Shown: positions 5,259 to 36,911 of the stretch, one piece after another
Numbering within the stretch: position 1 is the first letter of the stretch
Layout of the letters: every line of letters begins with the position of its first letter
UHGV virus genome: UHGV-0039449
DNA from: a virus
Direction: 5' to 3' (one strand)
Length of the DNA stretch: 44,033 nucleotides
Notes under the pieces: model-generated
Database searches by the model: none
Seen by the model: the letters and a program-made list of their open reading frames with translations, nothing else
What the model was told of the DNA's origin: nothing
Translations under genes and position numbers: made by a program

Positions 5259-5340
5259 AACTTGTTACCTCGGTCTGTTACCGTTGAGGTAATAATTATG
5301 CGTATCTGGTTTGATGTCAATAGATATGAGTTAAAAAAAA

Positions 5341-5355
5341 TTACCCAAAAGGTAA
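5341..5355. promoter_or_regulatory. Palindromic site TTACC-CAAAA-GGTAA (candidate operator at the leftward early promoter)
   Basis: Perfect 5+5+5 palindrome between the repressor terminator and the start of the leftward operon. Confidence 0.55.
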
Positions 5356-5365
5356 TCTAACAGGC

Positions 5366-5412: not shown

Positions 5413-5997
5413 TTATTGTTTGTTTTTTTCGTTCTGGTTGATGACAAATTCAATGTAACTTTCGATCTTTGCTTTCTCGGTTTCGGGTAACAATGCGTAG
5501 CGCGAGCGGTCATAGTTGATAGTCGCAGGGTCGTGCGGGTGAATCAGTAATTCATAGCCATGACGCCCGAATGCGGATGCAACATTCTCCAGGGTGGAAA
5601 TGGAAACGCTGACCTCATTGTTTAACAGGCGGCTGATTGTCACCTGGGCGACGCCGGATGCGCGGTGAAGTTTTCCCTGCGTTGAAAGGTCGCGGCTTTC
5701 GCTCATCCAGCGTTCCAGGTTGTGAGCCGCCAGCTGACCAATGTCGCTTGGGCCGACAGGCTGAAAACCTTCCTGAGAAAGCGAGCGATCGATATCAAGC
5801 CAGTTACGGGGTTTATTGGCGGCAGCTTCAATTTTTCGTGCAACCTGGTCGCCGATAACCTTCTTGCCAAGAGCCCAGCGGTTTACCAGATTTGCCTGAG
5901 TTCCAAGTTTTTCTGCCATCCGCGTCTGAACACCATTGAATTCACGGTCGATCAAGTCGTTGAGATTTTGCCTGCGGACGTCCTGGATACTTTTCAT
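5413..5997 (-). CDS. Putative prophage repressor with tandem XRE-type HTH domains
   Basis: 194 aa with two HTH-like segments (MAEKLGTQANLVNRWALGKK... and VAQVTISRLLNNEVSVSISTLENVASAF). Divergent from the Cro-like gene, with three palindromic sites between them. No S24 peptidase motif seen. Confidence 0.6.
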   Translation of the reverse strand: MKSIQDVRRQNLNDLIDREFNGVQTRMAEKLGTQANLVNRWALGKKVIGDQVARKIEAAANKPRNWLDIDRSLSQEGFQPVGPSDIGQLAAHNLERWMSESRDLSTQGKLHRASGVAQVTISRLLNNEVSVSISTLENVASAFGRHGYELLIHPHDPATINYDRSRYALLPETEKAKIESYIEFVINQNEKNKQ

Positions 5998-6052
5998 TTT
6001 CTGGAAAATCGCCTCATATATGAATCAGTAGATGATTCAATTTAAAGCAATA

Positions 6053-6115
6053 TTACCCAACAGGTAAATGCACCTCATGGGTAACTATCCTTGATTTTTG
6101 TTACCTTATGGGTGA
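6053..6115. promoter_or_regulatory. Three clustered palindromic sites between repressor and cro-like genes
   Basis: 6053-6067 TTACC-CAACA-GGTAA (perfect); 6070-6084 GCACC-TCATG-GGTAA (degenerate); 6101-6115 TTACC-TTATG-GGTGA (one mismatch). Confidence 0.6.
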
Positions 6116-6151
6116 ATATTTATTATCTGAAATAAATATCAGGCAATAGCT

Positions 6152-6382
6152 ATGAGCGATAACGGACATTTCGATTTCAAAAAGCACTGGCTTGCACTTA
6201 CTCCGGATGAGCGTGAAGCCTTCGCACAGGAAGCCGGAACGACGAGTCACTATATCCAGACTCACTTAACAGGTAAGCGCAAAATGCCAGGTAAAGTATT
6301 GATGAATGGGCTTTTTAAAGCCTGTAAAACAAGACAATGGCTGCGCTCAAAAGCAGAACTGGCATACTTCTTCTACTCATGA
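6152..6382 (+). CDS. Cro-like small HTH regulator
   Basis: 76 aa, divergent from the repressor; FAQEAGTTSHYIQTHLTGKRKMPGK is HTH-like; followed by a terminator. Confidence 0.5.
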   Translation: MSDNGHFDFKKHWLALTPDEREAFAQEAGTTSHYIQTHLTGKRKMPGKVLMNGLFKACKTRQWLRSKAELAYFFYS

Positions 6383-6429: not shown

Positions 6430-6437
6430 ATCTATTC

Positions 6438-6452
6438 GTACCTCAAAGGTAA
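6438..6452. promoter_or_regulatory. Palindromic site GTACC-TCAAA-GGTAA
   Basis: Directly after the terminator downstream of cro, ahead of the replication operon. Confidence 0.45.
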
Positions 6453-6532
6453 TAAATAACCAAATCTGGTTGATCTTTTTTTTGTGTCAGCACAAAATAA
6501 CCGTAATCCCAATACTAATAACAGGTCTTACC

Positions 6533-8372: not shown

Positions 8373-8383
8373 CGTCTCAACAA

Positions 8384-8460
8384 TTACCTATCAGGTAATA
8401 AAATATTCTAAACTCTATTGATTTCGTGTCTTATGTGGTTTTTAATTACCTTAGAGGTAA
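8384..8460. promoter_or_regulatory. Two perfect palindromic sites flanking a putative promoter
   Basis: 8384-8398 TTACC-TATCA-GGTAA and 8446-8460 TTACC-TTAGA-GGTAA (ends 4 nt before ATG 8464); TTGATT-N17-TTTAAT between them. Confidence 0.5.
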
Positions 8461-8463
8461 ATC

Positions 8464-11254: not shown

Positions 11255-11292
11255 GTAGATTATGCATGATGAATTTGATGGTTTTGAATACT

Positions 11293-11318
11293 GCCGCCAA
11301 CTATGGCGGCTTTATTTT
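11293..11318 (+). terminator. Rho-independent terminator just upstream of terS
   Basis: GCCGCC-AACTAT-GGCGGC followed by TTTATTTT; followed by a direct repeat CTATTACCAC-N6-CTATTACCAC. Confidence 0.55.
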
Positions 11319-11361
11319 GCATGGTACTATTACCACAACGGTAACTATTACCACGGTGGTT

Positions 11362-11958
11362 ATGATGCCTGCTGAACCTAAAACCTATAAACGCAAATCA
11401 ACGCAATTTAAGCCACTAACAGCAATGCAGGAGGCTTATTGCCAGTCATACATCAAAACGCCTGAAAACCAGACTCAGGCAGCGATTAACGCAGGATTCT
11501 CCCCAAATACAGCGGCAGTTAAAGCCAGTGTCATGATGCGCGATGAACGCATTCAAAAACGGATTGCCGAGTTGATGGAGGAGCGCAACAAACGAATGCG
11601 CGTCAGTGCTGATTACGTTCTCATGCGCCTGGTGGAGATCGACCAGATGGACGTGATCGACATCCTCAACGACGATGGGAGCCTTAAGCCAATCCGCGAG
11701 TGGCCGAAAATCTGGCGCACTACGCTTAGTGGCTTTGATCTGTCATCGACCATCATGAACATGAACGAGGATTCGATAGAGACAATCCTCAAAAAAATTA
11801 AATGGCCTGACAAGGTGAAGAACCTCGAACTGATTGGTAAGCATGTTGATGTCAACGCGTTCAAAGAACGTCTGGATGTTAATGTGAATGTGACAATTGC
11901 TGATCGCATAGCAGCAGCCAGGAAGCGACTCAAAGAACGTCAGGATGGTAATCAGTGA
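11362..11958 (+). CDS. terS: Terminase small subunit
   Basis: Lies directly upstream of, and overlapping, the large terminase gene; basic N-terminus MMPAEPKTYKRKSTQFKPLTAMQEAYCQ. Start placed at ATG 11362 rather than the hydrophobic extension from 11266. Confidence 0.7.
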   Translation: MMPAEPKTYKRKSTQFKPLTAMQEAYCQSYIKTPENQTQAAINAGFSPNTAAVKASVMMRDERIQKRIAELMEERNKRMRVSADYVLMRLVEIDQMDVIDILNDDGSLKPIREWPKIWRTTLSGFDLSSTIMNMNEDSIETILKKIKWPDKVKNLELIGKHVDVNAFKERLDVNVNVTIADRIAAARKRLKERQDGNQ

Positions 11959-13430
11959 AAGATACAGCGTTATCTCCTGAAGAGCAGTTGATCGAGGATA
12001 TTGCAGGGTTCACTCACGATCCGCTTGGTTATGCCCTCTATGCGTTCCCGTGGGGGGAAGAGGGGACTGAACTGGCACATGCCACCGGTCCACGTCAGTG
12101 GCAGGCCGATGCGTTCCGAGAGATACGTGATCACCTGCAGAATCCAGAGACGCGCTATCAGCCGCTTATGCTGGCACGCGCTTCTGGTCACGGTATTGGT
12201 AAATCCGCATTCATCTCAATGCTGATCAACTGGGGCATGTCCACTTGCGAGGATTGTAAGGTCGTGGTGACCGCCAACACCGACAACCAGCTACGAACGA
12301 AGACCTGGCCGGAAATTATCAAGTGGTCGAACCTTGCTATCACGAAAGACTGGTTTACCTGTACCGCTACCGCGATGTACAGCAATGACCTAGGGCACGA
12401 CAAGCGGTGGCGGGCTGACGCAATACCCTGGTCTGAGCACAACACCGAGGCATTCGCCGGACTACACAACGAGCGCAAACGCATCATCGTGGTGTTTGAT
12501 GAAGCGTCGAACATTGCGGATCTGGTGTGGGAAGTTGCCGAGGGTGCGCTTACGGACGAAGACACTGAGATTATTTGGGTGGCGTTCGGAAACCCTACAC
12601 GTAACACCGGGCGTTTTCGCGAATGTTTCCGCAAATATAAACACCGCTGGAAAACTGCGCAGATTGACAGCCGGACGGTGGAAGGCACTAACAAACAGCA
12701 GTTGCAGAAATGGGTTGATGACTACGGGGAAGACAGCGACTTCGTTAAAATCCGTGTGCGCGGTATATTCCCGGATGCATCTGAATTGCAGTTTATCCCT
12801 ACCGGCCTTACTGACGAGGCAATGAAACGGGTGGTAACCGCTGCGCAGGTTGCACATGCTCCGGTGATAATCGGCGTTGACCCGGCATACTCCGGCGTTG
12901 ATGACGCTGTGATATACCTGCGGCAGGGGCTGCACAGTAAGGTGCTGTGGACCGGCAACAAGACCACTGACGATCTGATTATGGCAAAGCGTATCGCTGA
13001 CTTTGAAGACCAGTATCAGGCTGACGCGGTGTTCATCGACTTCGGTTACGGTACCGGGCTGAAGTCAATCGGTGACGGTTGGGGGCGCACATGGCAACTT
13101 GTTCCGTTCGGTGGCGCGTCTACTGACCCGCAGATGCTCAACAAGCGTGGGGAGATGTTCAACTCATGCAAGACATGGCTGAGGCTGGGCGGCATGCTGG
13201 ATGACCAGGAAACAGCGGACGACCTGTCGGCGGCAGAGTACAAAGTTCGCGTGGACGGTAAAATCGTTATCGAACCGAAGGAAGATATCAAAGAGCGGCT
13301 TGGGCGTTCTCCTGGTAAAGGCGATGCGCTACTGCTGACGTTTGCGTTCCCTGTGTCGAAGCGTCTGCGAATTCCCGGGCAGCAGAACCAGCAAGGCAAG
13401 GCGCTTACCGAGTACGATCCATATGCTTAG
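11955..13430 (+). CDS. terL: Terminase large subunit
   Basis: 491 aa; Walker A-like ARASGHGIGKS; Walker B-like IIVVFDEAS; C-terminal nuclease-like region; GTG start overlapping the terS stop. Confidence 0.85.
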   Translation: MKDTALSPEEQLIEDIAGFTHDPLGYALYAFPWGEEGTELAHATGPRQWQADAFREIRDHLQNPETRYQPLMLARASGHGIGKSAFISMLINWGMSTCEDCKVVVTANTDNQLRTKTWPEIIKWSNLAITKDWFTCTATAMYSNDLGHDKRWRADAIPWSEHNTEAFAGLHNERKRIIVVFDEASNIADLVWEVAEGALTDEDTEIIWVAFGNPTRNTGRFRECFRKYKHRWKTAQIDSRTVEGTNKQQLQKWVDDYGEDSDFVKIRVRGIFPDASELQFIPTGLTDEAMKRVVTAAQVAHAPVIIGVDPAYSGVDDAVIYLRQGLHSKVLWTGNKTTDDLIMAKRIADFEDQYQADAVFIDFGYGTGLKSIGDGWGRTWQLVPFGGASTDPQMLNKRGEMFNSCKTWLRLGGMLDDQETADDLSAAEYKVRVDGKIVIEPKEDIKERLGRSPGKGDALLLTFAFPVSKRLRIPGQQNQQGKALTEYDPYA

Positions 13431-14245
13431 TCTTTATTTTTATCATCGAAACCTGATAATCCAGATAGAACACCAAAGTTATTAAAAACGTTTGGCTTAC
13501 CAGATTTTAATCCGGATAAGTTGTGTTGCTCCAAAAAGTTGCTAATTGTTTGGCCGTTGCCAAGTGCAAGGCTTTTTATTTGAGATTTTTCAGGGTATTT
13601 GAGTTTGTATTCGTCGAAATCATTTTGGAGGGTCTTATATGCCTCATTCATTCTTCCCAGAGTTTCCGATATCTCTTTTAATGAATGATTTAGAGCTGCT
13701 AACTGAGCACTGGCGGATCTCAATTCGTCATCTTTAGCTTTCAACTCGGCAGTCAATTCCCCCATACTATTCTTTGATCGAATAATCTCTTCTTTCATCT
13801 CTTGGATGTCTTTTTCCGCGCCAGTCTTAACTTTGTCGTATGTAACATCTTTTTTAGCCAATAACCTCTGCAGTCTGGTTTCACGCTGGATTTTTCTTGC
13901 CTTCAGGTGATTTTCGATTGAGTCATTATTATCAAGAGGCTTTGCTTGCCATACGTTAATGATATTGTTTACCCATGGTAATAGGCAGCAGATAGCAATT
14001 ACAGATAAGCATGGATAAAACATAACAGTTTTCCATGTGCTGTTATCTGAGATATATGAAATTTTATCTATTATGTTTGATTTGCTAAAAAATAGATAAA
14101 GAATTGATTTCCAGTTGAAGGCGCACCAGGACATAACAAAAGCACCAAGCACAGGGTTTTTGGCTCGATTCACGGCAGTATTGGCAGTAGATAAAAACAG
14201 CTCTTTAAACGATTCAAACATGCTAATTACCTTGAAGTTTTTCAT
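13427..14245 (-). CDS. Membrane-anchored coiled-coil protein of unknown function (moron)
   Basis: 272 aa from ATG 14245; two predicted TM segments followed by a long coiled coil; about 30% GC against the phage background; antisense insertion between terL and the portal gene; TATAAT directly abuts the start codon. Confidence 0.5.
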   Translation of the reverse strand: MKNFKVISMFESFKELFLSTANTAVNRAKNPVLGAFVMSWCAFNWKSILYLFFSKSNIIDKISYISDNSTWKTVMFYPCLSVIAICCLLPWVNNIINVWQAKPLDNNDSIENHLKARKIQRETRLQRLLAKKDVTYDKVKTGAEKDIQEMKEEIIRSKNSMGELTAELKAKDDELRSASAQLAALNHSLKEISETLGRMNEAYKTLQNDFDEYKLKYPEKSQIKSLALGNGQTISNFLEQHNLSGLKSGKPNVFNNFGVLSGLSGFDDKNKD

Positions 14246-14249
14246 GATT

Positions 14250-14264
14250 ATACCTTTAAGGTAA
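14250..14264. promoter_or_regulatory. Palindromic site ATACC-TTTAA-GGTAA at the start of the membrane coiled-coil moron
   Basis: Overlaps the TATAAT that abuts the minus-strand ATG at 14245. Confidence 0.4.
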
Positions 14265-14280
14265 TTTGCGGTCATCAAGC

Positions 14281-14304
14281 AAAAAAATGCCCGGCGAACC
14301 GGGC
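14281..14304 (-). terminator. Rho-independent terminator closing the tRNA transcription unit
   Basis: Minus strand GCCCGG-TTCG-CCGGGC followed by TTTTTTT. Confidence 0.6.
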
Positions 14305-14380
14305 GAACTGGAAGCAATGAGTTATGCCTTCCGTGGCTGTACGGGTTTACAGCATGAAGTCATCGCAATGGCGTCCTGCT

Positions 14381-14424
14381 GTAAAAAGGGCGGTGATAGT
14401 CCTTCAAGGGAAACCATCACCGCC
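14381..14424 (-). terminator. Stem-loop with T-run immediately 3' of the tRNA
   Basis: Minus strand GGCGGTGAT-(18-nt loop)-ATCACCGCC followed by CTTTTTAC. Confidence 0.45.
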
Positions 14425-14467
14425 AAGCCCCTGGAACTTCTGGCATCACGGTCCTTAGGCGTGATTC

Positions 14468-14544
14468 TGGCGCGGCATGCAGGATTCGAACCTGCGACCA
14501 ACCGCTTAGAAGGCGGTTGCTCTGTCCAACTGAGCTAATGCCAC
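14468..14544 (-). tRNA. tRNA-Arg (anticodon UCU), phage-encoded
   Basis: 77-nt cloverleaf folded by hand from the minus strand: acceptor GTGGCAT/ATGCCGC, D-arm GCTC/GAGC, anticodon stem ACCGC/GCGGT with loop CTTCTAA, T-arm GCAGG-TTCGAAT-CCTGC, encoded CCA. Confidence 0.8.
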
Positions 14545-14866
14545 AACGCTGAGAGCACTTAGCCTGTTAAGGCACCACACTTTGTCGCGGCTCCATAAAT
14601 GCTCTCATCGTTGCACCCTCGTCTCTTCCGAGGTGTCACACCGAATCGCCGGGATGGTGAATCCCCGTGCGCGGAATAAAACCGCTCGACTTGCACATTC
14701 CGGCTACCTGGTTCGTTTGCCCGAGCAAGGGAGGGTGCCACTTAAACGTATCCAGACCGCTATCGGCGCATGTGCCATACACCGTACTGCTCAAAATAAA
14801 AGCTCACCCCACCTGTTCAATTTAACGACAAGCCAGTCAGGTTAATAACCGGAATGAACTCTTTGC

Positions 14867-14881
14867 TTACCTGAAAGGTAA
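14867..14881. promoter_or_regulatory. Palindromic site TTACC-TGAAA-GGTAA upstream of the portal operon
   Basis: Perfect site about 90 nt upstream of ATG 14972. Confidence 0.5.
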
Positions 14882-14971
14882 TAATTAGTGCGTTAAATGT
14901 CAAGTGTCTACGATAAATAAATCACATGTGGTTAAATTGGTAATAATTTAATTGCGTACGGAGTCATTGAT

Positions 14972-15178
14972 ATGTGCATGGGTAGCTCACCATCAGTGCC
15001 TGCAACACCAGAAGTTCAGGCAGCACCACAGGAGCAGGATGCCGCCGTTGTTGATGCCCGCGACGAAGAAACTCGTCGCCGTCGCGCTGCTGCTGGTCGT
15101 AGTTCTACGCTGCTTACCGGTTCTCAGGGCGACACATCAACCGCTAATACCAGCGGTAAAACGCTGCTTGGTCAGTAA
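14972..15178 (+). CDS. Hypothetical small acidic protein preceding the portal gene
   Basis: 68 aa; its RBS context CGGAGTCATTGATATG is duplicated before the portal gene (CGGAGTCATTGAAATG). Confidence 0.4.
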   Translation: MCMGSSPSVPATPEVQAAPQEQDAAVVDARDEETRRRRAAAGRSSTLLTGSQGDTSTANTSGKTLLGQ

Positions 15179-15192
15179 CCGGAGTCATTGAA

Positions 15193-16872
15193 ATGGCGGA
15201 AACAACTAAAGAGCGATTGAACAAACAGTTCGCACAACTTGAAAGCGAGCGTCAGTCGTTCGAGCCGCACTGGCGCGAGTTGAGTGATTACATCAACCCG
15301 CGTGGTTCCCGCTTTCTGACTTCTGAGGTCAACCGTAACGATCGACGCAATACACGCATTATTGATTCGACCGGGACTATGGCGGCGCGCACTCTCGCCA
15401 GCGGCATGATGTCAGGCATCACAAGCCCCGCGCGTCCGTGGTTTCGCCTGGCTACGCCAGATCCTGAAATGATGGATTATGGCCCTGTTAAGTTGTGGCT
15501 TGAGGCGGTGCAGAACCGCATGAACGATATGTTCAATAAGTCGAATCTCTACCAGTCTCTTCCGCAGTTATACGGAAGCCTCGGCACATACAGCACTGGT
15601 GCAATGGCGGTGCTGGAGGATGACGAGGACATCATTCGCACAATGCCATTCCCGATAGGCAGTTACTACCTGGCTAACTCACCTCGTGGCAGTGTGGACA
15701 CCTGTTTTCGCAAGTTCTCTATGACTGTTCGTCAGCTTGTTCAGGAGTTCGGGCTAAATAACGTCAGCGAATCCGTAAAAAGCATGTGGGAAAGCGGCAC
15801 CTACGAGAAGTGGATTGAAGTGATGCATTCGGTTTACCCGAACATTGACCGCGATACATCGAAGCTGGATAGCAAGAACAAGCCATTCAAATCGGTTTAT
15901 TACGAGGTTGGTGGCGATAACGACAAGTTGTTGCGTGAGTCCGGATTCGATGAGTTTCCAATTATGGCTCCGCGCTGGGAAGTTAACGGCGAAGATGTTT
16001 ATGGATCATCATGCCCGGGTATGCTGGCGCTTGGACCTGTTAAGGCATTGCAGCTTCTCCAGAAGCGCAAGTCGCAGTTGATTGATAAAGCCACCAATCC
16101 GCCGATGGTTGCTCCGACTTCCCTCAAGAATCAGCGCGCCTCCCTTCTTCCTGGCGACATCACGTATATCGATCAGATTACTGGTCAGGATGGTTTCAGG
16201 CCTGCTTATCTGGTTAACCCCAGTACAGCAGATCTGGTAGCAGACATTCAGGACACCCGCCAAATCATTAACAGCGCCTACTTTGTCGATCTGTTCATGA
16301 TGTTGCAGAACATCAATACCCGCTCGATGCCTGTTGAAGCGGTGATCGAAATGAAAGAAGAAAAACTTCTGATGTTGGGGCCGGTTCTGGAGCGTCTGAA
16401 CGACGAATGTCTTAATCCTCTCATTGACCGCGCTTTCTCGATGATGGTGCGTAAAAACATGCTGCCGCCACCGCCTGACGCGATGGAAGGTATGCCCCTG
16501 AAGGTCGAATACATTTCTGTCATGGCTCAGGCGCAGAAGTCTATCGGCCTGTCCAGTCTGGCGTCCACGGTTAACTTCATTGGTCAACTTGCGCAAGCGA
16601 AACCAGAAGCTCTCGACAAACTCAACGTTGATCAGGCGATCGATGCATTCGCTGATATGTCCGGAGTGTCTCCAACCGTCATTGTTCCGCAGGAACAGGT
16701 TGAGCAGGCTCGCCAGCAACGGGCACAGCAACAACAGCAGCAACAAATGATGGCGATGGGGATGGCGGCGGCACAGGGTGCCAAGACGCTAAGCGAAGCT
16801 AAAACTTCGGATCCGAGTGTTTTGTCAGCTATGGCGAATGCAGTTAGTGGTCAGGGTGGGCAATCACAATGA
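15193..16872 (+). CDS. Portal protein
   Basis: 559 aa, directly downstream of the terminase region; size and position fit a podovirus portal; Q-rich C-terminus. Confidence 0.75.
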   Translation: MAETTKERLNKQFAQLESERQSFEPHWRELSDYINPRGSRFLTSEVNRNDRRNTRIIDSTGTMAARTLASGMMSGITSPARPWFRLATPDPEMMDYGPVKLWLEAVQNRMNDMFNKSNLYQSLPQLYGSLGTYSTGAMAVLEDDEDIIRTMPFPIGSYYLANSPRGSVDTCFRKFSMTVRQLVQEFGLNNVSESVKSMWESGTYEKWIEVMHSVYPNIDRDTSKLDSKNKPFKSVYYEVGGDNDKLLRESGFDEFPIMAPRWEVNGEDVYGSSCPGMLALGPVKALQLLQKRKSQLIDKATNPPMVAPTSLKNQRASLLPGDITYIDQITGQDGFRPAYLVNPSTADLVADIQDTRQIINSAYFVDLFMMLQNINTRSMPVEAVIEMKEEKLLMLGPVLERLNDECLNPLIDRAFSMMVRKNMLPPPPDAMEGMPLKVEYISVMAQAQKSIGLSSLASTVNFIGQLAQAKPEALDKLNVDQAIDAFADMSGVSPTVIVPQEQVEQARQQRAQQQQQQQMMAMGMAAAQGAKTLSEAKTSDPSVLSAMANAVSGQGGQSQ

Positions 16873-26678: not shown

Positions 26679-28477
26679 GTTACTTTGGCCTTAATCCAGT
26701 AAACCAGAATCAGCAGCTTGACGAAGCAGTATCAAATCCAGCTGGCTTTAACAGCGATGTTGGTTTTTTCGACAATGCTGTAGGAGCGGCATTGTCTGGT
26801 TTGTACTCCGGGCTGGTGGCAAAGCCAGATCAGTTGCTATGGGCAGGGATGGATAAAATCGTATCCCCGATTGCTCAGTTTGTTAACGAAAACACCTCGC
26901 TCAATGACACTTCAGTTTCATACATTGCCGAGCAGAGAAAACTAGCAGAGCAGCAGGTTAAGCGGCTGACGCCTGATGCCGCGACAACCGGAACCGCCGG
27001 GCAGGTTCTTTATGGGTTGTTCGATATGGGCGGGCAGGCTGTTGTCGGTACAACGCTCGGTGGTCCTGTCGGAGGTGCAGCGGCGGTAACTTCGCTACAG
27101 GGTTTTTCTGAGTTTGAACGGCTGACAGCACAGGGTGTTGATTTCAGGACAGCGCAGGAAGCGGGATTAGTGCAGGGCATTACTGCTGGGGCCGGGACAT
27201 TGATCCCTATGAGCCTCGGGTTACGTGCTGGTGGTGCGCTGGCGGAAGGTGTGGCGGCTCAGCTCGCGCGGACGGGTGAAAGTTCAGTACGACGCGCCGC
27301 AGCAACAGCAGTACGTGCAACGCCAGATATTGCCTATGCCGCAGGTACAAATATTGCGTTCGGTATGGCACAGCGTGGGCTTACTGCAAAAACGCTTCGT
27401 GATGGTGGCTATAGCGAAATGGCTAACCAGTATGATGTGTTGGATCGACAGGCAATTGCTATTGATGCTGTTCTTGGGGTGGCGTTTGGTGGTGTCGGCA
27501 GATTTATTAACTCTCGCGGCGAGTCTACAAACGCACCAAATTTTTCACCAGTTGATATCGATGCTGCACTGGCGGCGAATGCCGCTCATCATGCTGAAAT
27601 TGATATTGCGCCCGGCGTGCCGATCAACGTGCTTTCGCGCAATTCTCACATTCAGGCTCTGCGAAAAGCTATGTCTGATGTTAGCCAGGGGAGACCTGTA
27701 GACGTTGCCAGCATTGTTGAGTCTGCATCTTTCAGTGAAATTCCTGGGCGCAAGAGTCTGCTGTCTCAGGCAGTTAATGAGGCTCTGTCATCTGTAGATG
27801 ATGGAGTAACGGCGCGCGCTATAGAAAATCGGTTGCTTGAAGAACAGGCCGCGCAGCTTTTGCCGCGTGGAGATAGACAGGTTTACCAGTCTGAAATCGC
27901 TAATAGCCAACGAATTATTGAAAATCTCACTGAACAGCGTGCACAAATTCTTGCAGAAGAGCCAACCGGTAGCGGTAAAGCTTTGTCTCGTGCTCGATCA
28001 GATAAACAGGCCAGACTTCGCGATATTGATCAACGAATCCGGCAGGCACAAGAACGCCTGGAATTTTCCCGTAACGCGTTGGCACCGCACGAGCCTGGCG
28101 GTCAGCTTTTTGAAGCTCGAGCAGAACTGGCTCGGAGACAGCAGGCAGAAAGTGAACTTAATGCTCAGGCTGTTTCATTCTATAAAACAGCAGAGGTCAG
28201 GACGCCAGACGAAGTAGCTCCTTTTGAGCCTGATAAAATATTGCAACAGGCAGAACAAAAAATGATGTCAGATAAGGCAGGAGATATTGATCTGCGCATA
28301 GCTGAAGACTCGCTGCTTGAATCACCTGACATGATAATCACCGTGCTGGATGATGATGGTAATCCACAATCGCGCAGCGCGCGTGAAGTACTGGATGAAG
28401 CGAACAGGGAAAGTGAGCAGGCAATACAGGATTCCAGCCTGTTTGATGTCGCTGTGGCGTGTTTCTTGAGAGGTTAA
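26675..28477 (+). CDS. Internal virion / ejection protein
   Basis: 600 aa, Ala/Gly-rich N-terminal half and coiled-coil C-terminus; overlap-coupled. Confidence 0.55.
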   Translation: MSYFGLNPVNQNQQLDEAVSNPAGFNSDVGFFDNAVGAALSGLYSGLVAKPDQLLWAGMDKIVSPIAQFVNENTSLNDTSVSYIAEQRKLAEQQVKRLTPDAATTGTAGQVLYGLFDMGGQAVVGTTLGGPVGGAAAVTSLQGFSEFERLTAQGVDFRTAQEAGLVQGITAGAGTLIPMSLGLRAGGALAEGVAAQLARTGESSVRRAAATAVRATPDIAYAAGTNIAFGMAQRGLTAKTLRDGGYSEMANQYDVLDRQAIAIDAVLGVAFGGVGRFINSRGESTNAPNFSPVDIDAALAANAAHHAEIDIAPGVPINVLSRNSHIQALRKAMSDVSQGRPVDVASIVESASFSEIPGRKSLLSQAVNEALSSVDDGVTARAIENRLLEEQAAQLLPRGDRQVYQSEIANSQRIIENLTEQRAQILAEEPTGSGKALSRARSDKQARLRDIDQRIRQAQERLEFSRNALAPHEPGGQLFEARAELARRQQAESELNAQAVSFYKTAEVRTPDEVAPFEPDKILQQAEQKMMSDKAGDIDLRIAEDSLLESPDMIITVLDDDGNPQSRSAREVLDEANRESEQAIQDSSLFDVAVACFLRG

Positions 28478-31848: not shown

Positions 31849-32481
31849 TTAATGCAGTTTATCTTTGCTTATAACCAGTAGTCTGTGGGTATGCACATCT
31901 TTATCACTGCCCCAACAGAAATCAGCCCACTGGCTATAGAAATCATCCCATGATGTCATGAAGCTAAGAGGTCTATCTTCTTCAGAGCCATCTGAAACGT
32001 ATACATTATATCCTGGGGTGTTTATAGCCCAAGAAATCATTCTTTCCCAGAATCTTCTCCCATCGATTGTTTGTTGCTCATCAGATACAACGATCGCATA
32101 TTGCTCTAGGAAGAACTGAAAAAAAATCTGAGGCAAACCATGAACAGCACGGTCATGAATAACATTAGGCGTACGCCATACCATGATCTGCGTACATGTT
32201 CTTTTGGCTTCGACGATATCTTCCCGAAAGATTAACTTAACCGCATACACCGTTTCTGGAGTATCGCTGGTAGTAATCATTCTGTAATGATCGCCATTAC
32301 AAGATTTTACAAGGCGATAACCATAAGGTGTTGTGAATCCCGGAAGAACGAAATCAACCACACCTTTCGCTAAGTAGCTTTCGGTGTGACTAGTGTTCTT
32401 CTCAGACATGTTCAGTTTTCTATCGAAATCTGCTTCTGGGATAATGTATGGCATCGCTTTTCTTGTTGTATTTGTTCTCAT
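31849..32481 (-). CDS. Hypothetical protein (210 aa) of unknown function
   Basis: GGGAGG RBS 5 nt upstream; perfect TTACC-N5-GGTAA site about 60 nt upstream; own terminator; no recognisable domain. Confidence 0.5.
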   Translation of the reverse strand: MRTNTTRKAMPYIIPEADFDRKLNMSEKNTSHTESYLAKGVVDFVLPGFTTPYGYRLVKSCNGDHYRMITTSDTPETVYAVKLIFREDIVEAKRTCTQIMVWRTPNVIHDRAVHGLPQIFFQFFLEQYAIVVSDEQQTIDGRRFWERMISWAINTPGYNVYVSDGSEEDRPLSFMTSWDDFYSQWADFCWGSDKDVHTHRLLVISKDKLH

Positions 32482-32539: not shown

Positions 32540-32554
32540 CTTACCCTTGAGGTA
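32540..32554. promoter_or_regulatory. Palindromic site TTACC-CTTGA-GGTAA upstream of the 210-aa gene
   Basis: Perfect site about 60 nt upstream of the minus-strand start at 32481. Confidence 0.5.
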
Positions 32555-32627
32555 ATAGTACGCTATTCACCCCCAGTCTGCAATCTGTACAGAATTATTT
32601 AAAGGCACATCCCTGTGCCGCCGCCCG

Positions 32628-33465: not shown

Positions 33466-33555
33466 ATGCGCCACTTAGTAATCCGGGAGACCAATCCCGG
33501 CACTGGATTTTGCCAGTGCCCGATTACTATGGCACAAGAGGAGTGCGATGTAAAT

Positions 33556-33570
33556 TTACCGCAAAGGTAA
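33556..33570. promoter_or_regulatory. Palindromic site TTACC-GCAAA-GGTAA between the small Ant paralogue and ant
   Basis: Perfect site in the long leader region upstream of ant. Confidence 0.45.
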
Positions 33571-33601
33571 ATATAAGCACTCCATTTGGTAATTTCAAAC
33601 C

Positions 33602-33899: not shown

Positions 33900-33936
33900 G
33901 CAAATAATTTGTTTGCTATCCAGCACGTTTTGCAAA

Positions 33937-33951
33937 TCACCTGAAAGGTAA
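33937..33951. promoter_or_regulatory. Palindromic site TCACC-TGAAA-GGTAA in the divergent region before the tailspike gene
   Basis: Four of five left-half matches, perfect right half; a further half-site GGTAA lies at 33997-34001. Confidence 0.4.
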
Positions 33952-34055
33952 TATCTATTCGAATTCACAGCCTTTCTATCCATATGTGGTTTTTCAGGTA
34001 ATAGAATAACCAGATATGCGGCGCAACGGGTGCTGCGATTATCTGGAGATTTAAC

Positions 34056-36755: not shown

Positions 36756-36792
36756 ATATCCATACTGTAGGAAATAGCGATACGAAACAATA

Positions 36793-36807
36793 TCACCTCA
36801 CGGGTAA
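36793..36807. promoter_or_regulatory. Palindromic site TCACC-TCACG-GGTAA upstream of the lysis cassette
   Basis: About 105 nt upstream of the putative holin start. Confidence 0.4.
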
Positions 36808-36911
36808 TTTAGAGATAGGTGGACTCATAAAATTTAATTCATATATGGTTTATGTGTATTATAAACCCAATAACCAATGGGGTGGATTATACACAGTAAT
36901 CGGCGGTCTTT

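What the first reader, a model, noticed from the sequence alone, without database searches (positions are those of the whole stretch)
13427..14245. AT-rich membrane coiled-coil moron inserted antisense between terL and the portal gene, beside a phage tRNA
A 272-aa protein with two TM helices and a long coiled coil is encoded on the opposite strand inside the otherwise co-directional packaging-head operon, at much lower GC. A -10-like TATAAT directly abuts the start codon, suggesting a leaderless, lysogen-expressed transcript. I do not recognise the protein, but the architecture resembles superinfection-exclusion or abortive-infection membrane proteins.
Basis: partly seen in the sequence, partly recalled or inferred. 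Interest (0 to 1): 0.6.

Follow-up and report, generated by a model that had tools for sequence, protein, structure and literature searches.

The report
Uncharacterised membrane coiled-coil phage accessory gene
A real, antisense, AT-rich gene in an E. coli phiV10-like prophage encodes a membrane-anchored coiled-coil protein from a large, unstudied family that sits in phage accessory-gene hotspots; it is a good untested candidate for phage-versus-phage conflict, but it is probably neither leaderless nor lysogen-expressed.

Summary
The ORF, its antisense position between terL and portal, its low GC, the neighbouring tRNA-Arg and the TATAAT next to ATG 14245 are all confirmed.

Corrections:
- **Start codon.** Homologues start at Met9 (ATG 14221, 264 aa). 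A conserved promoter plus a roughly 20-nt leader travels with the gene, so ATG 14245 lies in the 5'UTR. The mRNA is not leaderless.
- **Regulation.** The promoter overlaps a 17-bp palindrome (ATTACC-N5-GGTAAT). The palindrome is repeated at about 14 intergenic sites in the prophage, including three in the immunity region. This predicts repressor control and early expression, not constitutive lysogenic expression.

The protein is phrog_4780. It has no Pfam, NCBIfam, PADLOC or PDB relative. Its N-terminal 160 residues are conserved: a two-segment membrane hairpin, with both termini predicted cytoplasmic. Its C-terminal coiled coil is hypervariable.

The terL-portal slot is a cargo hotspot with at least five alternative antisense genes. 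Distant relatives lie in the same slot, in the lambdoid nin region, in the P2 gpA-Q defence hotspot, and in Bacteroidota beside restriction, McrBC and Ppl genes.

Best reading (about 0.45): a solo exclusion or abortive-infection-type membrane protein. No member has been tested.

The parts
13427..14221 (-). Most likely coding sequence, 264 aa plus stop: MFESFKELF...DDKNKD. The stop (13427-13429) overlaps the terL stop (13428-13430).
   Evidence: ORF. Homologues start at this Met. phrog_4780 aligns from residue 9 of the 272-aa form.
14222..14245 (-). Eight in-frame codons (MKNFKVIS) upstream of the conserved start. This is PGAP's annotated start, but it is probably 5'UTR. It contains the AAGG Shine-Dalgarno at 14233-14230, 8 nt before ATG 14221.
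   Evidence: Relatives have CAGAAAAAAC here, with no ATG.
14247..14275 (-). Sigma-70-type promoter: -35 ATGACC (14275-14270), 17-nt spacer, -10 TATAAT (14252-14247).
   Evidence: 10 of 12 matches. The xTGAC(C/T)-17-TAnAnT geometry is conserved upstream of family members in every phage backbone.
14249..14265 (.). Operator-like 17-bp palindrome ATTACCTTAAAGGTATA (core TACC-N5-GGTA, 14251-14263). It overlaps the promoter spacer and the start of the -10.
   Evidence: The PWM score of 22.5 is among the best of about 14 sites in the prophage.
14281..14304 (-). Terminator-like hairpin GCCCGGTTCGCCGGGC plus a T-run. It marks the left boundary of the variable cargo cassette.
   Evidence: Flanks stay conserved up to the T-run across alternative cargo alleles.
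14381..14424 (-). Second terminator-like hairpin (14-bp stem) just downstream of the tRNA.
14468..14544 (-). tRNA-Arg (anticodon UCU, reads AGA). It is co-directional with the ORF and upstream of it.
   Evidence: ARAGORN; Rfam RF00005, 69.4 bits.
14866..14903 (-). Perfect -35 TTGACA (14903-14898) followed 17 nt later by a second operator-like palindrome (14882-14866). This is the probable regulated promoter of the antisense tRNA unit.
13742..14221 (-). Conserved N-terminal module, residues 1-160. It comprises an amphipathic helix, hydrophobic segment 1 (residues 23-45; 14087-14155, with invariant A-F-N-W-K), a short acidic loop, hydrophobic segment 2 (residues 63-92; 13946-14035), and a highly conserved juxtamembrane helix.
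   Evidence: Alignments A1 and A2, hydropathy, AF2 pLDDT above 90, charge bias.
13430..13741 (-). Hypervariable C-terminal region, residues 161-264. It holds the distal coiled coil (heptads run to about residue 217) and a low-confidence tail.

Best explanation
The gene is a self-contained accessory cassette (own promoter, short leader, 264-aa CDS) in the cargo hotspot that phiV10/epsilon15-like (Uetakevirus) prophages keep between terL and the tRNA-Arg/portal genes.

Its product is predicted to be an inner-membrane protein. Its N-terminal hairpin of two hydrophobic segments would leave both termini in the cytoplasm, and the second segment continues as a helix of about 145 residues that forms a cytoplasmic coiled-coil stalk.

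I infer that it acts in phage-versus-phage conflict, by exclusion or abortive infection. In this reading the conserved membrane module is the anchor or effector, and the hypervariable coiled coil determines partner or target specificity.

I further infer that the prophage repressor (or its Cro-like partner) controls the promoter through an overlapping operator. The protein would then be made early after infection or induction, or only at a basal level in the lysogen, rather than constitutively.

Shown: gene anatomy, family membership, modular conservation, hotspot behaviour, contexts and the operator network. Inferred: topology, regulation, and the function and mechanism.
For: **Real, conserved gene.** It matches phrog_4780 at E 6e-137. 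A search found 177 close homologues in Enterobacteriaceae. A profile of the N-terminal domain finds 376 cluster representatives at E<=1e-10 and 2,427 at E<=1e-3.

**Modular variation typical of conflict genes.** Across 124 homologues, N-domain identity averages 78% and C-domain identity 13%. In 116 pairs the N-domain is at least 90% identical while the C-domain is below 30%.

**It travels alone.**
- Same antisense terL-portal slot in E. coli, Salmonella, Klebsiella, Serratia and a metagenomic Uetakevirus-like prophage, at 23-71% identity.
- Antisense in the lambdoid nin region.
- No conserved partner gene in 43 Bacteroidota loci.

**Defence-type locations.**
- Distant members lie between gpA and portal Q of P2-like prophages. 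This is the old/tin anti-phage hotspot (PMC9122126).
- In Sphingobacterium the gene lies immediately upstream of a full-length Ppl homologue (E 1e-126) followed by McrBC.
- In Cryomorpha it is next to a type I restriction R subunit (E 0).
- The 141 nearest neighbours in Bacteroidota also include PDC-S06, PDC-M43A/B, PDC-S15, bSEFIR, IetA and HamB hits.

**Own promoter.** The 5' element is conserved in every backbone.

**Topology.** Over 137 representatives, mean net charge is +1.5 for the N-flank, -0.9 for the loop and +1.5 for the C-flank.

**Structure.** The AF2 model has mean pLDDT 85.6, with a single helix over residues 63-208.

**Operator network.** There are 11 exact TACC-N5-GGTA sites against 0.24 expected. 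Thirteen PWM hits score above every shuffle; all are intergenic except one inside a doubtful N-terminal extension of the annotated terS. Two weaker immunity-region sites score within the shuffle range. Three sites lie in the immunity region. phiV10 has the same layout, including a near-identical promoter and operator at int.
Against: - No member of the family has been tested. I found no paper for the accession or the PHROG and no match in the supplements I could search.
- There is no homology to any Sie, Abi or defence family in Pfam, NCBIfam, PADLOC 2023, PHROG annotations or the PDB. Fold searches return only generic coiled coils.
- The defence-neighbour evidence has no matched control, and many Bacteroidota neighbours are housekeeping genes.
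- If the operator means repression in the lysogen, the gene would not protect lysogens constitutively, as classical prophage defence genes do.
- A hypervariable coiled coil could also reflect weak constraint on a spacer.
- The other cargo genes in the same slot have no recognised defence function either.
- Hydrophobic segment 1 is only marginally hydrophobic, so the topology is not secure.
Confidence: 0.45

Rival explanations
1. It is an early lytic-cycle or establishment gene that manipulates the host rather than other phages. For example, a membrane-anchored coiled-coil protein could act on cell division, envelope or membrane proteostasis, or the lysis-lysogeny decision, and be expressed transiently like int and the other repressor-controlled early units.
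For: The promoter and operator architecture matches that of PR, early-left, nin-like, antirepressor and (in phiV10) int promoters. The extreme conservation of residues 95-160 would fit binding to a conserved host partner. The family has been a long-term resident of the same slot across Uetakevirus-like phages of several genera.
Against: The gene is dispensable. phiV10, TL-2011b, ZX5 and most close relatives carry other cargo in the slot. Hypervariability of the C-terminal half, occurrence in the P2 defence hotspot, and occurrence next to restriction, Ppl and McrBC genes in non-phage Bacteroidota DNA are all hard to explain by a host-takeover role.
Confidence: 0.25
2. One reading: a leaderless transcript starting at ATG 14245 is made constitutively in the lysogen and encodes a classical superinfection-exclusion protein that blocks DNA entry, as P22 SieA does.
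For: TATAAT lies next to ATG 14245 and PGAP calls that start. P22 SieA is a precedent for an inner-membrane exclusion protein encoded by a podovirus prophage (PMC10883804). An AAGG lies 7 nt upstream of ATG 14245 and could serve read-through transcripts.
Against: A -10 ending one base before the ATG would place the transcription start inside the ORF. The eight extra residues are confined to one clade, and most other homologues start at Met9 with a leader of about 25 nt after the -10. The operator overlaps the promoter. The protein has no similarity to SieA, which is 162-164 aa with three TM segments and a FxRYPxEAxxFNK motif.
Confidence: 0.08
3. It is a counter-defence (anti-defence) protein made early in infection to neutralise a host immune system.
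For: Early, repressor-controlled expression is predicted. The gene sits in a variable accessory slot and has a hypervariable region.
Against: Chromosomal copies in Bacteroidota and copies in the P2 old/tin hotspot sit among defence genes rather than in phage early regions. Membrane anchoring is not a feature I associate with characterised anti-defence proteins (my own knowledge, not checked here).
Confidence: 0.08
4. It is a virion, assembly or lysis component, for example a spanin-like or scaffolding protein belonging to the packaging-head operon.
For: It is located inside the morphogenesis region. A membrane anchor plus coiled coil superficially resembles an i-spanin.
Against: It is on the opposite strand with its own promoter. 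It is absent from phiV10, epsilon15 and other viable relatives. It has no structural, lysis or spanin PHROG or Pfam hits beyond coiled-coil noise. Charge bias indicates a cytoplasmic C-terminus. A separate Rz/Rz1 lysis cassette exists in this phage type.
Confidence: 0.03

Closest known systems
P22 SieA (superinfection exclusion A)
   Same: Both are single, prophage-borne inner-membrane proteins of temperate podoviruses, with several highly divergent sequence types (PMC10883804).
   Different: SieA is 162-164 aa with three predicted TM segments, no coiled coil, and a FxRYPxEAxxFNK motif. It is prophage-expressed and is known to block DNA injection by acting against ejection proteins gp16 and gp20. 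The present protein has no such motif or sequence similarity, carries a helical stalk of about 145 residues, and has an operator over its promoter.
Cargo genes of the P2 gpA-portal Q hotspot (old, tin and other anti-phage systems)
   Same: Distant family members occupy exactly this interval in P2-like prophages of Providencia and Pantoea and in an IMG/VR contig. The terL-portal slot here behaves the same way, as a fixed position with interchangeable cargo.
   Different: There is no homology to old, tin or any system tested in PMC9122126. The AC1 '2TM' protein from that paper did not resemble the family by eye (no FNWK motif). The phage backbone and the slot are different.
Lambdoid morons such as HK97 gp15, a prophage-expressed membrane protein that blocks DNA entry (recalled from the literature, not checked here)
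   Same: Both are extra genes with foreign composition and their own promoter, inserted between conserved genes and encoding small membrane proteins.
   Different: No terminator of its own was detected. The promoter carries the phage's operator. The family is an old resident of the slot rather than a one-off insertion. Function is untested.
T4 Imm, a membrane exclusion protein made early in lytic infection (recalled from the literature, not checked here)
   Same: A small membrane hairpin protein expressed early to protect an already infected cell. This would fit the predicted repressor-controlled early expression.
   Different: Imm is a much shorter protein with no coiled coil. There was no hit to any superinfection-immunity family at E<=0.1 in Pfam.

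Membership tests
phrog_4780 (PHROGs v4, unknown function) | Full-length profile match | tested here: met
   E 6.3e-137, residues 9-272 against profile positions 1-267 of 275. The N-terminal domain also matches phrog_13369 (3.7e-21) and phrog_35327 (4.9e-19).
Moron, in the sense used for lambdoid phages | Present in some genomes and absent or replaced in otherwise near-identical genomes | tested here: met
   Among 75 contigs with 98-99% identical terL, cargo is split 35 / 17 / 12 / 5 / 2 across five main unrelated gene families, with a few rarer ORFs. phiV10 and relatives lack this gene.
Moron, in the sense used for lambdoid phages | Atypical base composition | tested here: met
   GC 0.367 against 0.52-0.57 for the flanks. 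Four of 8 Arg codons are AGA, against none in terS, terL, portal or MCP.
Moron, in the sense used for lambdoid phages | Own promoter | tested here: met
   Sequence-level only. ATGACC-17-TATAAT is conserved with the gene in all backbones. Transcription was not measured.
Moron, in the sense used for lambdoid phages | Own terminator downstream | tested here: not met
   No terminator-like site was found after the stop, which overlaps the terL stop. The 3' region folds no better than shuffles (z = 0.07).
Moron, in the sense used for lambdoid phages | Expressed from the repressed prophage | not testable with these tools
   The operator-like palindrome over the promoter argues against constitutive expression. 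RNA data from a lysogen are needed.
SieB / Imm / RexB-type exclusion proteins (Pfam families) | Significant match to any such Pfam model | tested here: not met
   hmmscan at E<=0.1 returned only coiled-coil noise below the gathering thresholds. None of 57 diverse family members matched any such family.
P22 SieA | Three TM segments, about 160 aa, cytoplasmic FxRYPxEAxxFNK motif | tested here: not met
   The features come from PMC10883804. The protein here is 264 aa with two hydrophobic segments, and no such motif is visible in its sequence. No direct SieA alignment was run.
Known anti-phage defence systems (PADLOC-DB 2.0.0) | Specific match to a defence-protein model | tested here: not met
   Only weak coiled-coil matches (DndD, LmuB and JetC arms; best 1.8e-5). 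For 57 family members, only two isolated coiled-coil hits. Systems described after 2023 were not covered.
i-spanin (Rz-like) | N-in/C-out single TM, periplasmic coiled coil, gene in the lysis cassette with a partner o-spanin | tested here: not met
   No spanin PHROG or Pfam hit. Charge bias favours a cytoplasmic C-terminus. The gene is far from the lysis cassette, and this phage type has its own Rz/Rz1.

The most novel reading that the evidence does not exclude
The family is a previously unrecognised, widespread, single-gene immune or exclusion system found from Enterobacteriaceae to Bacteroidota. A conserved two-segment membrane module acts as effector, for example by perturbing the membrane or blocking genome entry. 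A rapidly diversifying cytoplasmic coiled coil is the phage-sensing or specificity element. In Uetakeviruses the gene has additionally been wired into the phage's own repressor/operator network.
Probability: 0.3. Interest if true: 0.7.

Novelty: new variant of a known kind. Interest (0 to 1): 0.5.

Why it matters
If the inference holds, a family with hundreds to thousands of sequence clusters would join the anti-phage repertoire as a very simple one-protein system. The family currently has no Pfam, NCBIfam or PADLOC model. Its natural domain swaps (identical membrane module, different coiled coils) would make specificity directly testable.

The case also flags the terL-portal slot of phiV10/epsilon15-like prophages as a cargo hotspot, analogous to the P2 and P4 hotspots. 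About one in six complete E. coli genomes carry sequence matching the flanks of the slot (terL end and/or the tRNA-Arg region). At least four other cargo genes of unknown function sit there.

The operator network offers a handle on how these phages silence many separate transcription units.

If the gene proves inert against phages, it remains a well-defined example of how reading a -10 box next to an ATG can mislead start-codon and 'leaderless' calls.

Tried and rejected
**Family and fold searches**
- Pfam, NCBIfam, PADLOC and PHROG scans of the protein gave only phrog_4780 and relatives plus coiled-coil noise. Scans of 57 diverse relatives against Pfam and PADLOC gave the same picture.
- A PDB sequence search with the N-domain profile found nothing.
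- The first AF2 model, built from close homologues only, was poor (pLDDT 67), and a BFVD search with it was empty.

**Locus and literature searches**
- The search for related loci in genome contigs with the enterobacterial alignment confirmed no hit.
- Literature searches for the accession and the PHROG id found nothing. The supplements of the DefensePredictor paper and of the P2/P4 hotspot paper did not contain the accession.
- I considered whether the '2TM' protein of the AC1 TIR system from the P2 hotspot paper is a relative. Its sequence did not look related by eye, but I ran no alignment.

**Ideas checked and dropped**
- tRNA-Arg(UCU) exists to serve the cargo: rejected. The tRNA is present whatever the cargo, and tail genes also use AGA.
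- MerR-like activation (operator in an overlong spacer): rejected. The conserved geometry has a 17-nt spacer.
- A LysM-like C-terminal tail: no Pfam support.
- No Rfam family other than the tRNA was found in 13200-15300.
Full report

Yes. A minus-strand ORF ends at 13427 and can start at ATG 14245 (272 aa). A longer TTG form reaches 14317. This stretch of the window matches an E. coli chromosome (NZ_CP095086.1) at 100%. There the ORF is annotated as a 272-aa hypothetical protein inside a prophage integrated next to guaA.

Its neighbours are:
- terS (Pfam Terminase_2) and terL (phrog_2) on the plus strand, upstream of the slot
- the portal gene (PF12236, E 1.6e-187) on the plus strand, downstream

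The stops of terL and the ORF overlap. GC is 0.367 for the gene and 0.52-0.57 for the flanks.

tRNA-Arg(UCU) lies at 14468-14544, on the same strand as the ORF and upstream of it. Two terminator-like hairpins follow it. TATAAT (14252-14247) sits one base from ATG 14245.

The protein has:
- one strong hydrophobic segment (residues 63-92 in 264-aa numbering) and one marginal one (residues 23-45)
- a heptad pattern far above shuffles between residues about 113 and 217

**2. Start codon and 'leaderless' claim**

Of the 120 listed homologues (177 found), nearly all begin ML/FES-K-E. This corresponds to Met9 of the 272-aa form, and the commonest length is 264 aa. phrog_4780 also aligns from residue 9.

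I compared the DNA upstream of the conserved ATG in about 25 loci from different phage backbones. A shared element emerges: xTGAC(C/T), a 17-nt spacer, TAnAnT, then cAGAAAAAAC, an AAAGG-type Shine-Dalgarno, and the ATG about 25-31 nt after the -10.

In this window the leader reads CATGAAAAAC. ATG 14245 is therefore a fortuitous in-frame ATG inside the leader. A -10 that ends at 14247 predicts a transcription start near 14240, downstream of that ATG. AAGG (14233-14230) lies 8 nt before ATG 14221.

The leaderless reading is therefore not supported. This is inference from sequence, not a mapped 5' end.

**3. What the protein is**

It belongs to phrog_4780 (E 6e-137). It has no significant match in:
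- Pfam or NCBIfam
- PADLOC
- PDB sequences

Fifty-seven diverse relatives have no Pfam or PADLOC family either.

A profile of residues 1-165 retrieves 376 50%-identity cluster representatives at E<=1e-10. The best 150 almost all align from their own N-termini. They come from Enterobacteriaceae, Serratia, Pantoea, Providencia and Bacteroidota, and every member whose source name I looked up is labelled hypothetical or generic coiled-coil/Smc.

Conservation is strikingly modular:
- Residues 1-160 are 60-95% identical among close relatives. This includes an invariant A-F-N-W-K in segment 1 and an almost invariant juxtamembrane helix.
- Beyond residue about 160 the sequence is essentially unalignable.
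- Across 124 sequences the N-module averages 78% identity and the C-module 13%. In 116 pairs the N-module is at least 90% identical while the C-module is below 30%.

With a diverse alignment, AlphaFold2 gives a confident model (pLDDT 85.6). It has four short N-terminal helices and one continuous helix over residues 63-208. Fold searches find only generic coiled coils.

Net charge over 137 representatives is +1.5 for the N-flank, -0.9 for the loop and +1.5 for the C-flank. By the positive-inside rule, this favours both termini in the cytoplasm.

**4. The slot is a cargo hotspot, and the family is at home in it**

Phage records related to phiV10 match the flanks of this region but not the gene. 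phiV10 carries a 123-aa Sf6-gp66-like gene there instead.

Among 75 IMG/VR contigs with terL 98-99% identical to this one, the interval holds one of the following, always antisense and always starting just after the same hairpin and T-run:

| Cargo | Contigs |
|---|---|
| PF13876 (Sf6 gp66-like) gene | 35 |
| phrog_4846 | 17 |
| this family | 12 |
| phrog_27507 | 5 |
| phrog_3163 | 2 |

The small alternatives begin immediately with AAGGTGAG-ATG and have no promoter of their own. Every close relative of this gene examined brings its promoter with it; two distant alleles (Serratia L017, metagenomic L175) lack the operator at their promoter.

Diverged alleles occupy the same slot in Salmonella, Klebsiella and Serratia prophages and in a metagenomic one, down to 23-29% identity. 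About 60 of 71 IMG/VR loci found with the enterobacterial profile are in this slot.

Copies in other backbones lie antisense in the lambdoid nin region, between the replication genes (O/P- or DnaB-type) and DUF1367/DUF968/Q. Six such copies, including the one in Klebsiella phage KO-TP1, still carry a 26-150-aa fragment of the Uetakevirus terL 3' end. This is a fossil of export from the slot.

In E. coli, 37 of 5,426 complete genomes carry this allele. In all, 904 genomes match part of the 1.3-kb query, mainly its flanks.

**5. Evidence bearing on function**

No experiment exists for any member that I could find. The evidence is contextual.

- **P2 hotspot.** Distant members in Providencia, Pantoea and one IMG/VR contig lie between the P2-type replication gene A and portal gene Q. 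That interval is documented as a hotspot of anti-phage systems that includes old and tin (PMC9122126).
- **Bacteroidota.** In 43 chromosomal loci the gene has no conserved partner. Its nearest neighbours include:
  - a full-length Ppl homologue followed by McrBC
  - a type I restriction R subunit
  - hits to PDC-S06, PDC-M43A/B, PDC-S15, bSEFIR, IetA and HamB

  Many ordinary metabolic genes are also neighbours. I had no matched control, so this is suggestive rather than quantitative.
- **Sequence logic.** Solo mobility, foreign composition and a hypervariable half on a conserved membrane module fit a conflict gene.

**6. A regulatory twist found on the way**

The promoter spacer contains the palindrome TACCTTAAAGGTA. 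The core TACC-N5-GGTA occurs 11 times in the window, against 0.24 expected; none of 100 shuffles reached that count. The extended consensus is ATTACC-N5-GGTAAT.

In a PWM scan, 13 sites score above the maximum of 20 shuffles. All are intergenic except one that lies in a doubtful N-terminal extension of terS. Intergenic DNA is only 10.6% of the prophage.

Three sites lie between the HTH repressor gene (5413-5997, minus) and the cro-like gene (6152-6382, plus). One of them sits in the spacer of a TTGATT-17-AATATT promoter.

Other sites overlap or abut sigma-70-like promoters:
- of the early-left unit
- of the DUF1064 (nin-like) unit
- of the tRNA unit (perfect TTGACA at 14903-14898)

Further sites lie upstream of a low-GC 210-aa gene and in the antirepressor region.

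Five sites directly follow intrinsic-terminator hairpins. phiV10 has the same set of sites. It also has one at its integrase promoter whose sequence, GGTGAC...ATTACCTTAAAGGTATACT, is nearly the same as the promoter of this gene family.

The motif recurs at equivalent positions in Salmonella, Serratia and Klebsiella relatives. In non-Uetakevirus backbones it is found only in front of this gene, as a relic.

The simplest reading is that these are operators of the phage repressor/Cro pair, and that this promoter is shut in the lysogen and open early after infection or induction.

Caveat: a similar site lies between oac and the lysis genes of phiV10. The phiV10 record annotates oac as acting in superinfection immunity. 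A site therefore does not by itself prove silence.

**7. Most likely mechanism and rivals**

- **Best reading (0.45).** A single-protein, inner-membrane-anchored exclusion or abortive-infection factor. The conserved hairpin and juxtamembrane helix form the anchor or effector. The variable cytoplasmic coiled coil sets specificity. Expression comes from an operator-controlled early promoter.
- **Main rival (0.25).** A dispensable early gene that manipulates the host for the phage's own benefit.
- **Minor rivals.** The last is contradicted by strand, dispensability and absence from infectious relatives.

**8. Novelty and verdict**

The kind of thing, a single accessory membrane gene in a phage cargo hotspot, is well known. 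The family itself is undescribed in every library I could query and is large.

I rate it a new variant of a known kind, with moderate interest (0.5). It is a well-justified candidate for experimental testing, not a demonstrated system. Two parts of the original interpretation need correcting: the leaderless mRNA and the lysogen expression.

Noticed in passing
window 5277-5293, 5340-5356, 6052-6068, 6069-6085, 6100-6116, 6437-6453, 8383-8399, 8445-8461, 11329-11345, 14249-14265, 14866-14882, 32540-32556, 33555-33571, 33936-33952, 36792-36808: A 17-bp palindrome, ATTACC-N5-GGTAAT, is scattered over the prophage almost exclusively in intergenic DNA. There are 11 exact core matches against 0.24 expected. 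Three sites lie in the immunity region, several overlap sigma-70-like promoters, and five directly follow terminator hairpins. It looks like a genome-wide operator network for the phage repressor/Cro. I found no description of it in the papers searched.
   Followed up: partly
window 13430-14285; loci L091-L170: The terL-portal interval of phiV10-like prophages is a cargo hotspot. At least five unrelated genes alternate there: PF13876/Sf6 gp66-like, phrog_4846, phrog_27507, phrog_3163 and this family. All are antisense, all are of unknown function, and none has a PADLOC hit.
   Followed up: partly
L002 5815-5970 (Klebsiella phage KO-TP1); L039, L050-L053, L058: Copies of the gene outside Uetakeviruses still have a 26-150-aa fragment of the Uetakevirus terL C-terminus just downstream. 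This shows the cassette was exported from the terL-portal slot by illegitimate recombination.
   Followed up: partly
window 31849-32481 (-): This is another low-GC (0.41) antisense gene of 210 aa, with 10 of 14 Arg codons AGA and an operator-like palindrome about 60 nt upstream. It has no PADLOC hit and is a second accessory-gene candidate in the same prophage.
   Followed up: partly
window 14468-14903 (-): The tRNA-Arg(UCU) is itself antisense to the head operon. It has a perfect TTGACA -35 with an operator over the -10 position and two terminator-like hairpins after it. Members of this gene family are AGA-rich (3-10 AGA each). However, tail genes use AGA too, and the tRNA is present whatever the cargo.
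   Followed up: yes
window 11266-11368: The annotated terS start (11284 in PGAP; 11266 as the longest ORF) lies upstream of a terminator hairpin and an operator-like site. The real start is probably ATG 11362 (MMPAEPK...), which would make that operator intergenic.
   Followed up: no
L294 (phiV10) 26855-26890: The phiV10 integrase promoter region, GGTGAC-N-ATTACCTTAAAGGTATACT, is nearly identical to the promoter and operator that travel with this gene family. This suggests the cassette uses a standard Uetakevirus early-promoter module.
   Followed up: partly
window 14266-14538 (+); phiV10 PhiV10p04: A 90-aa plus-strand ORF overlapping the tRNA is conserved only because of the tRNA and hairpins. 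It is annotated as a CDS in phiV10 but is almost certainly spurious.
   Followed up: no
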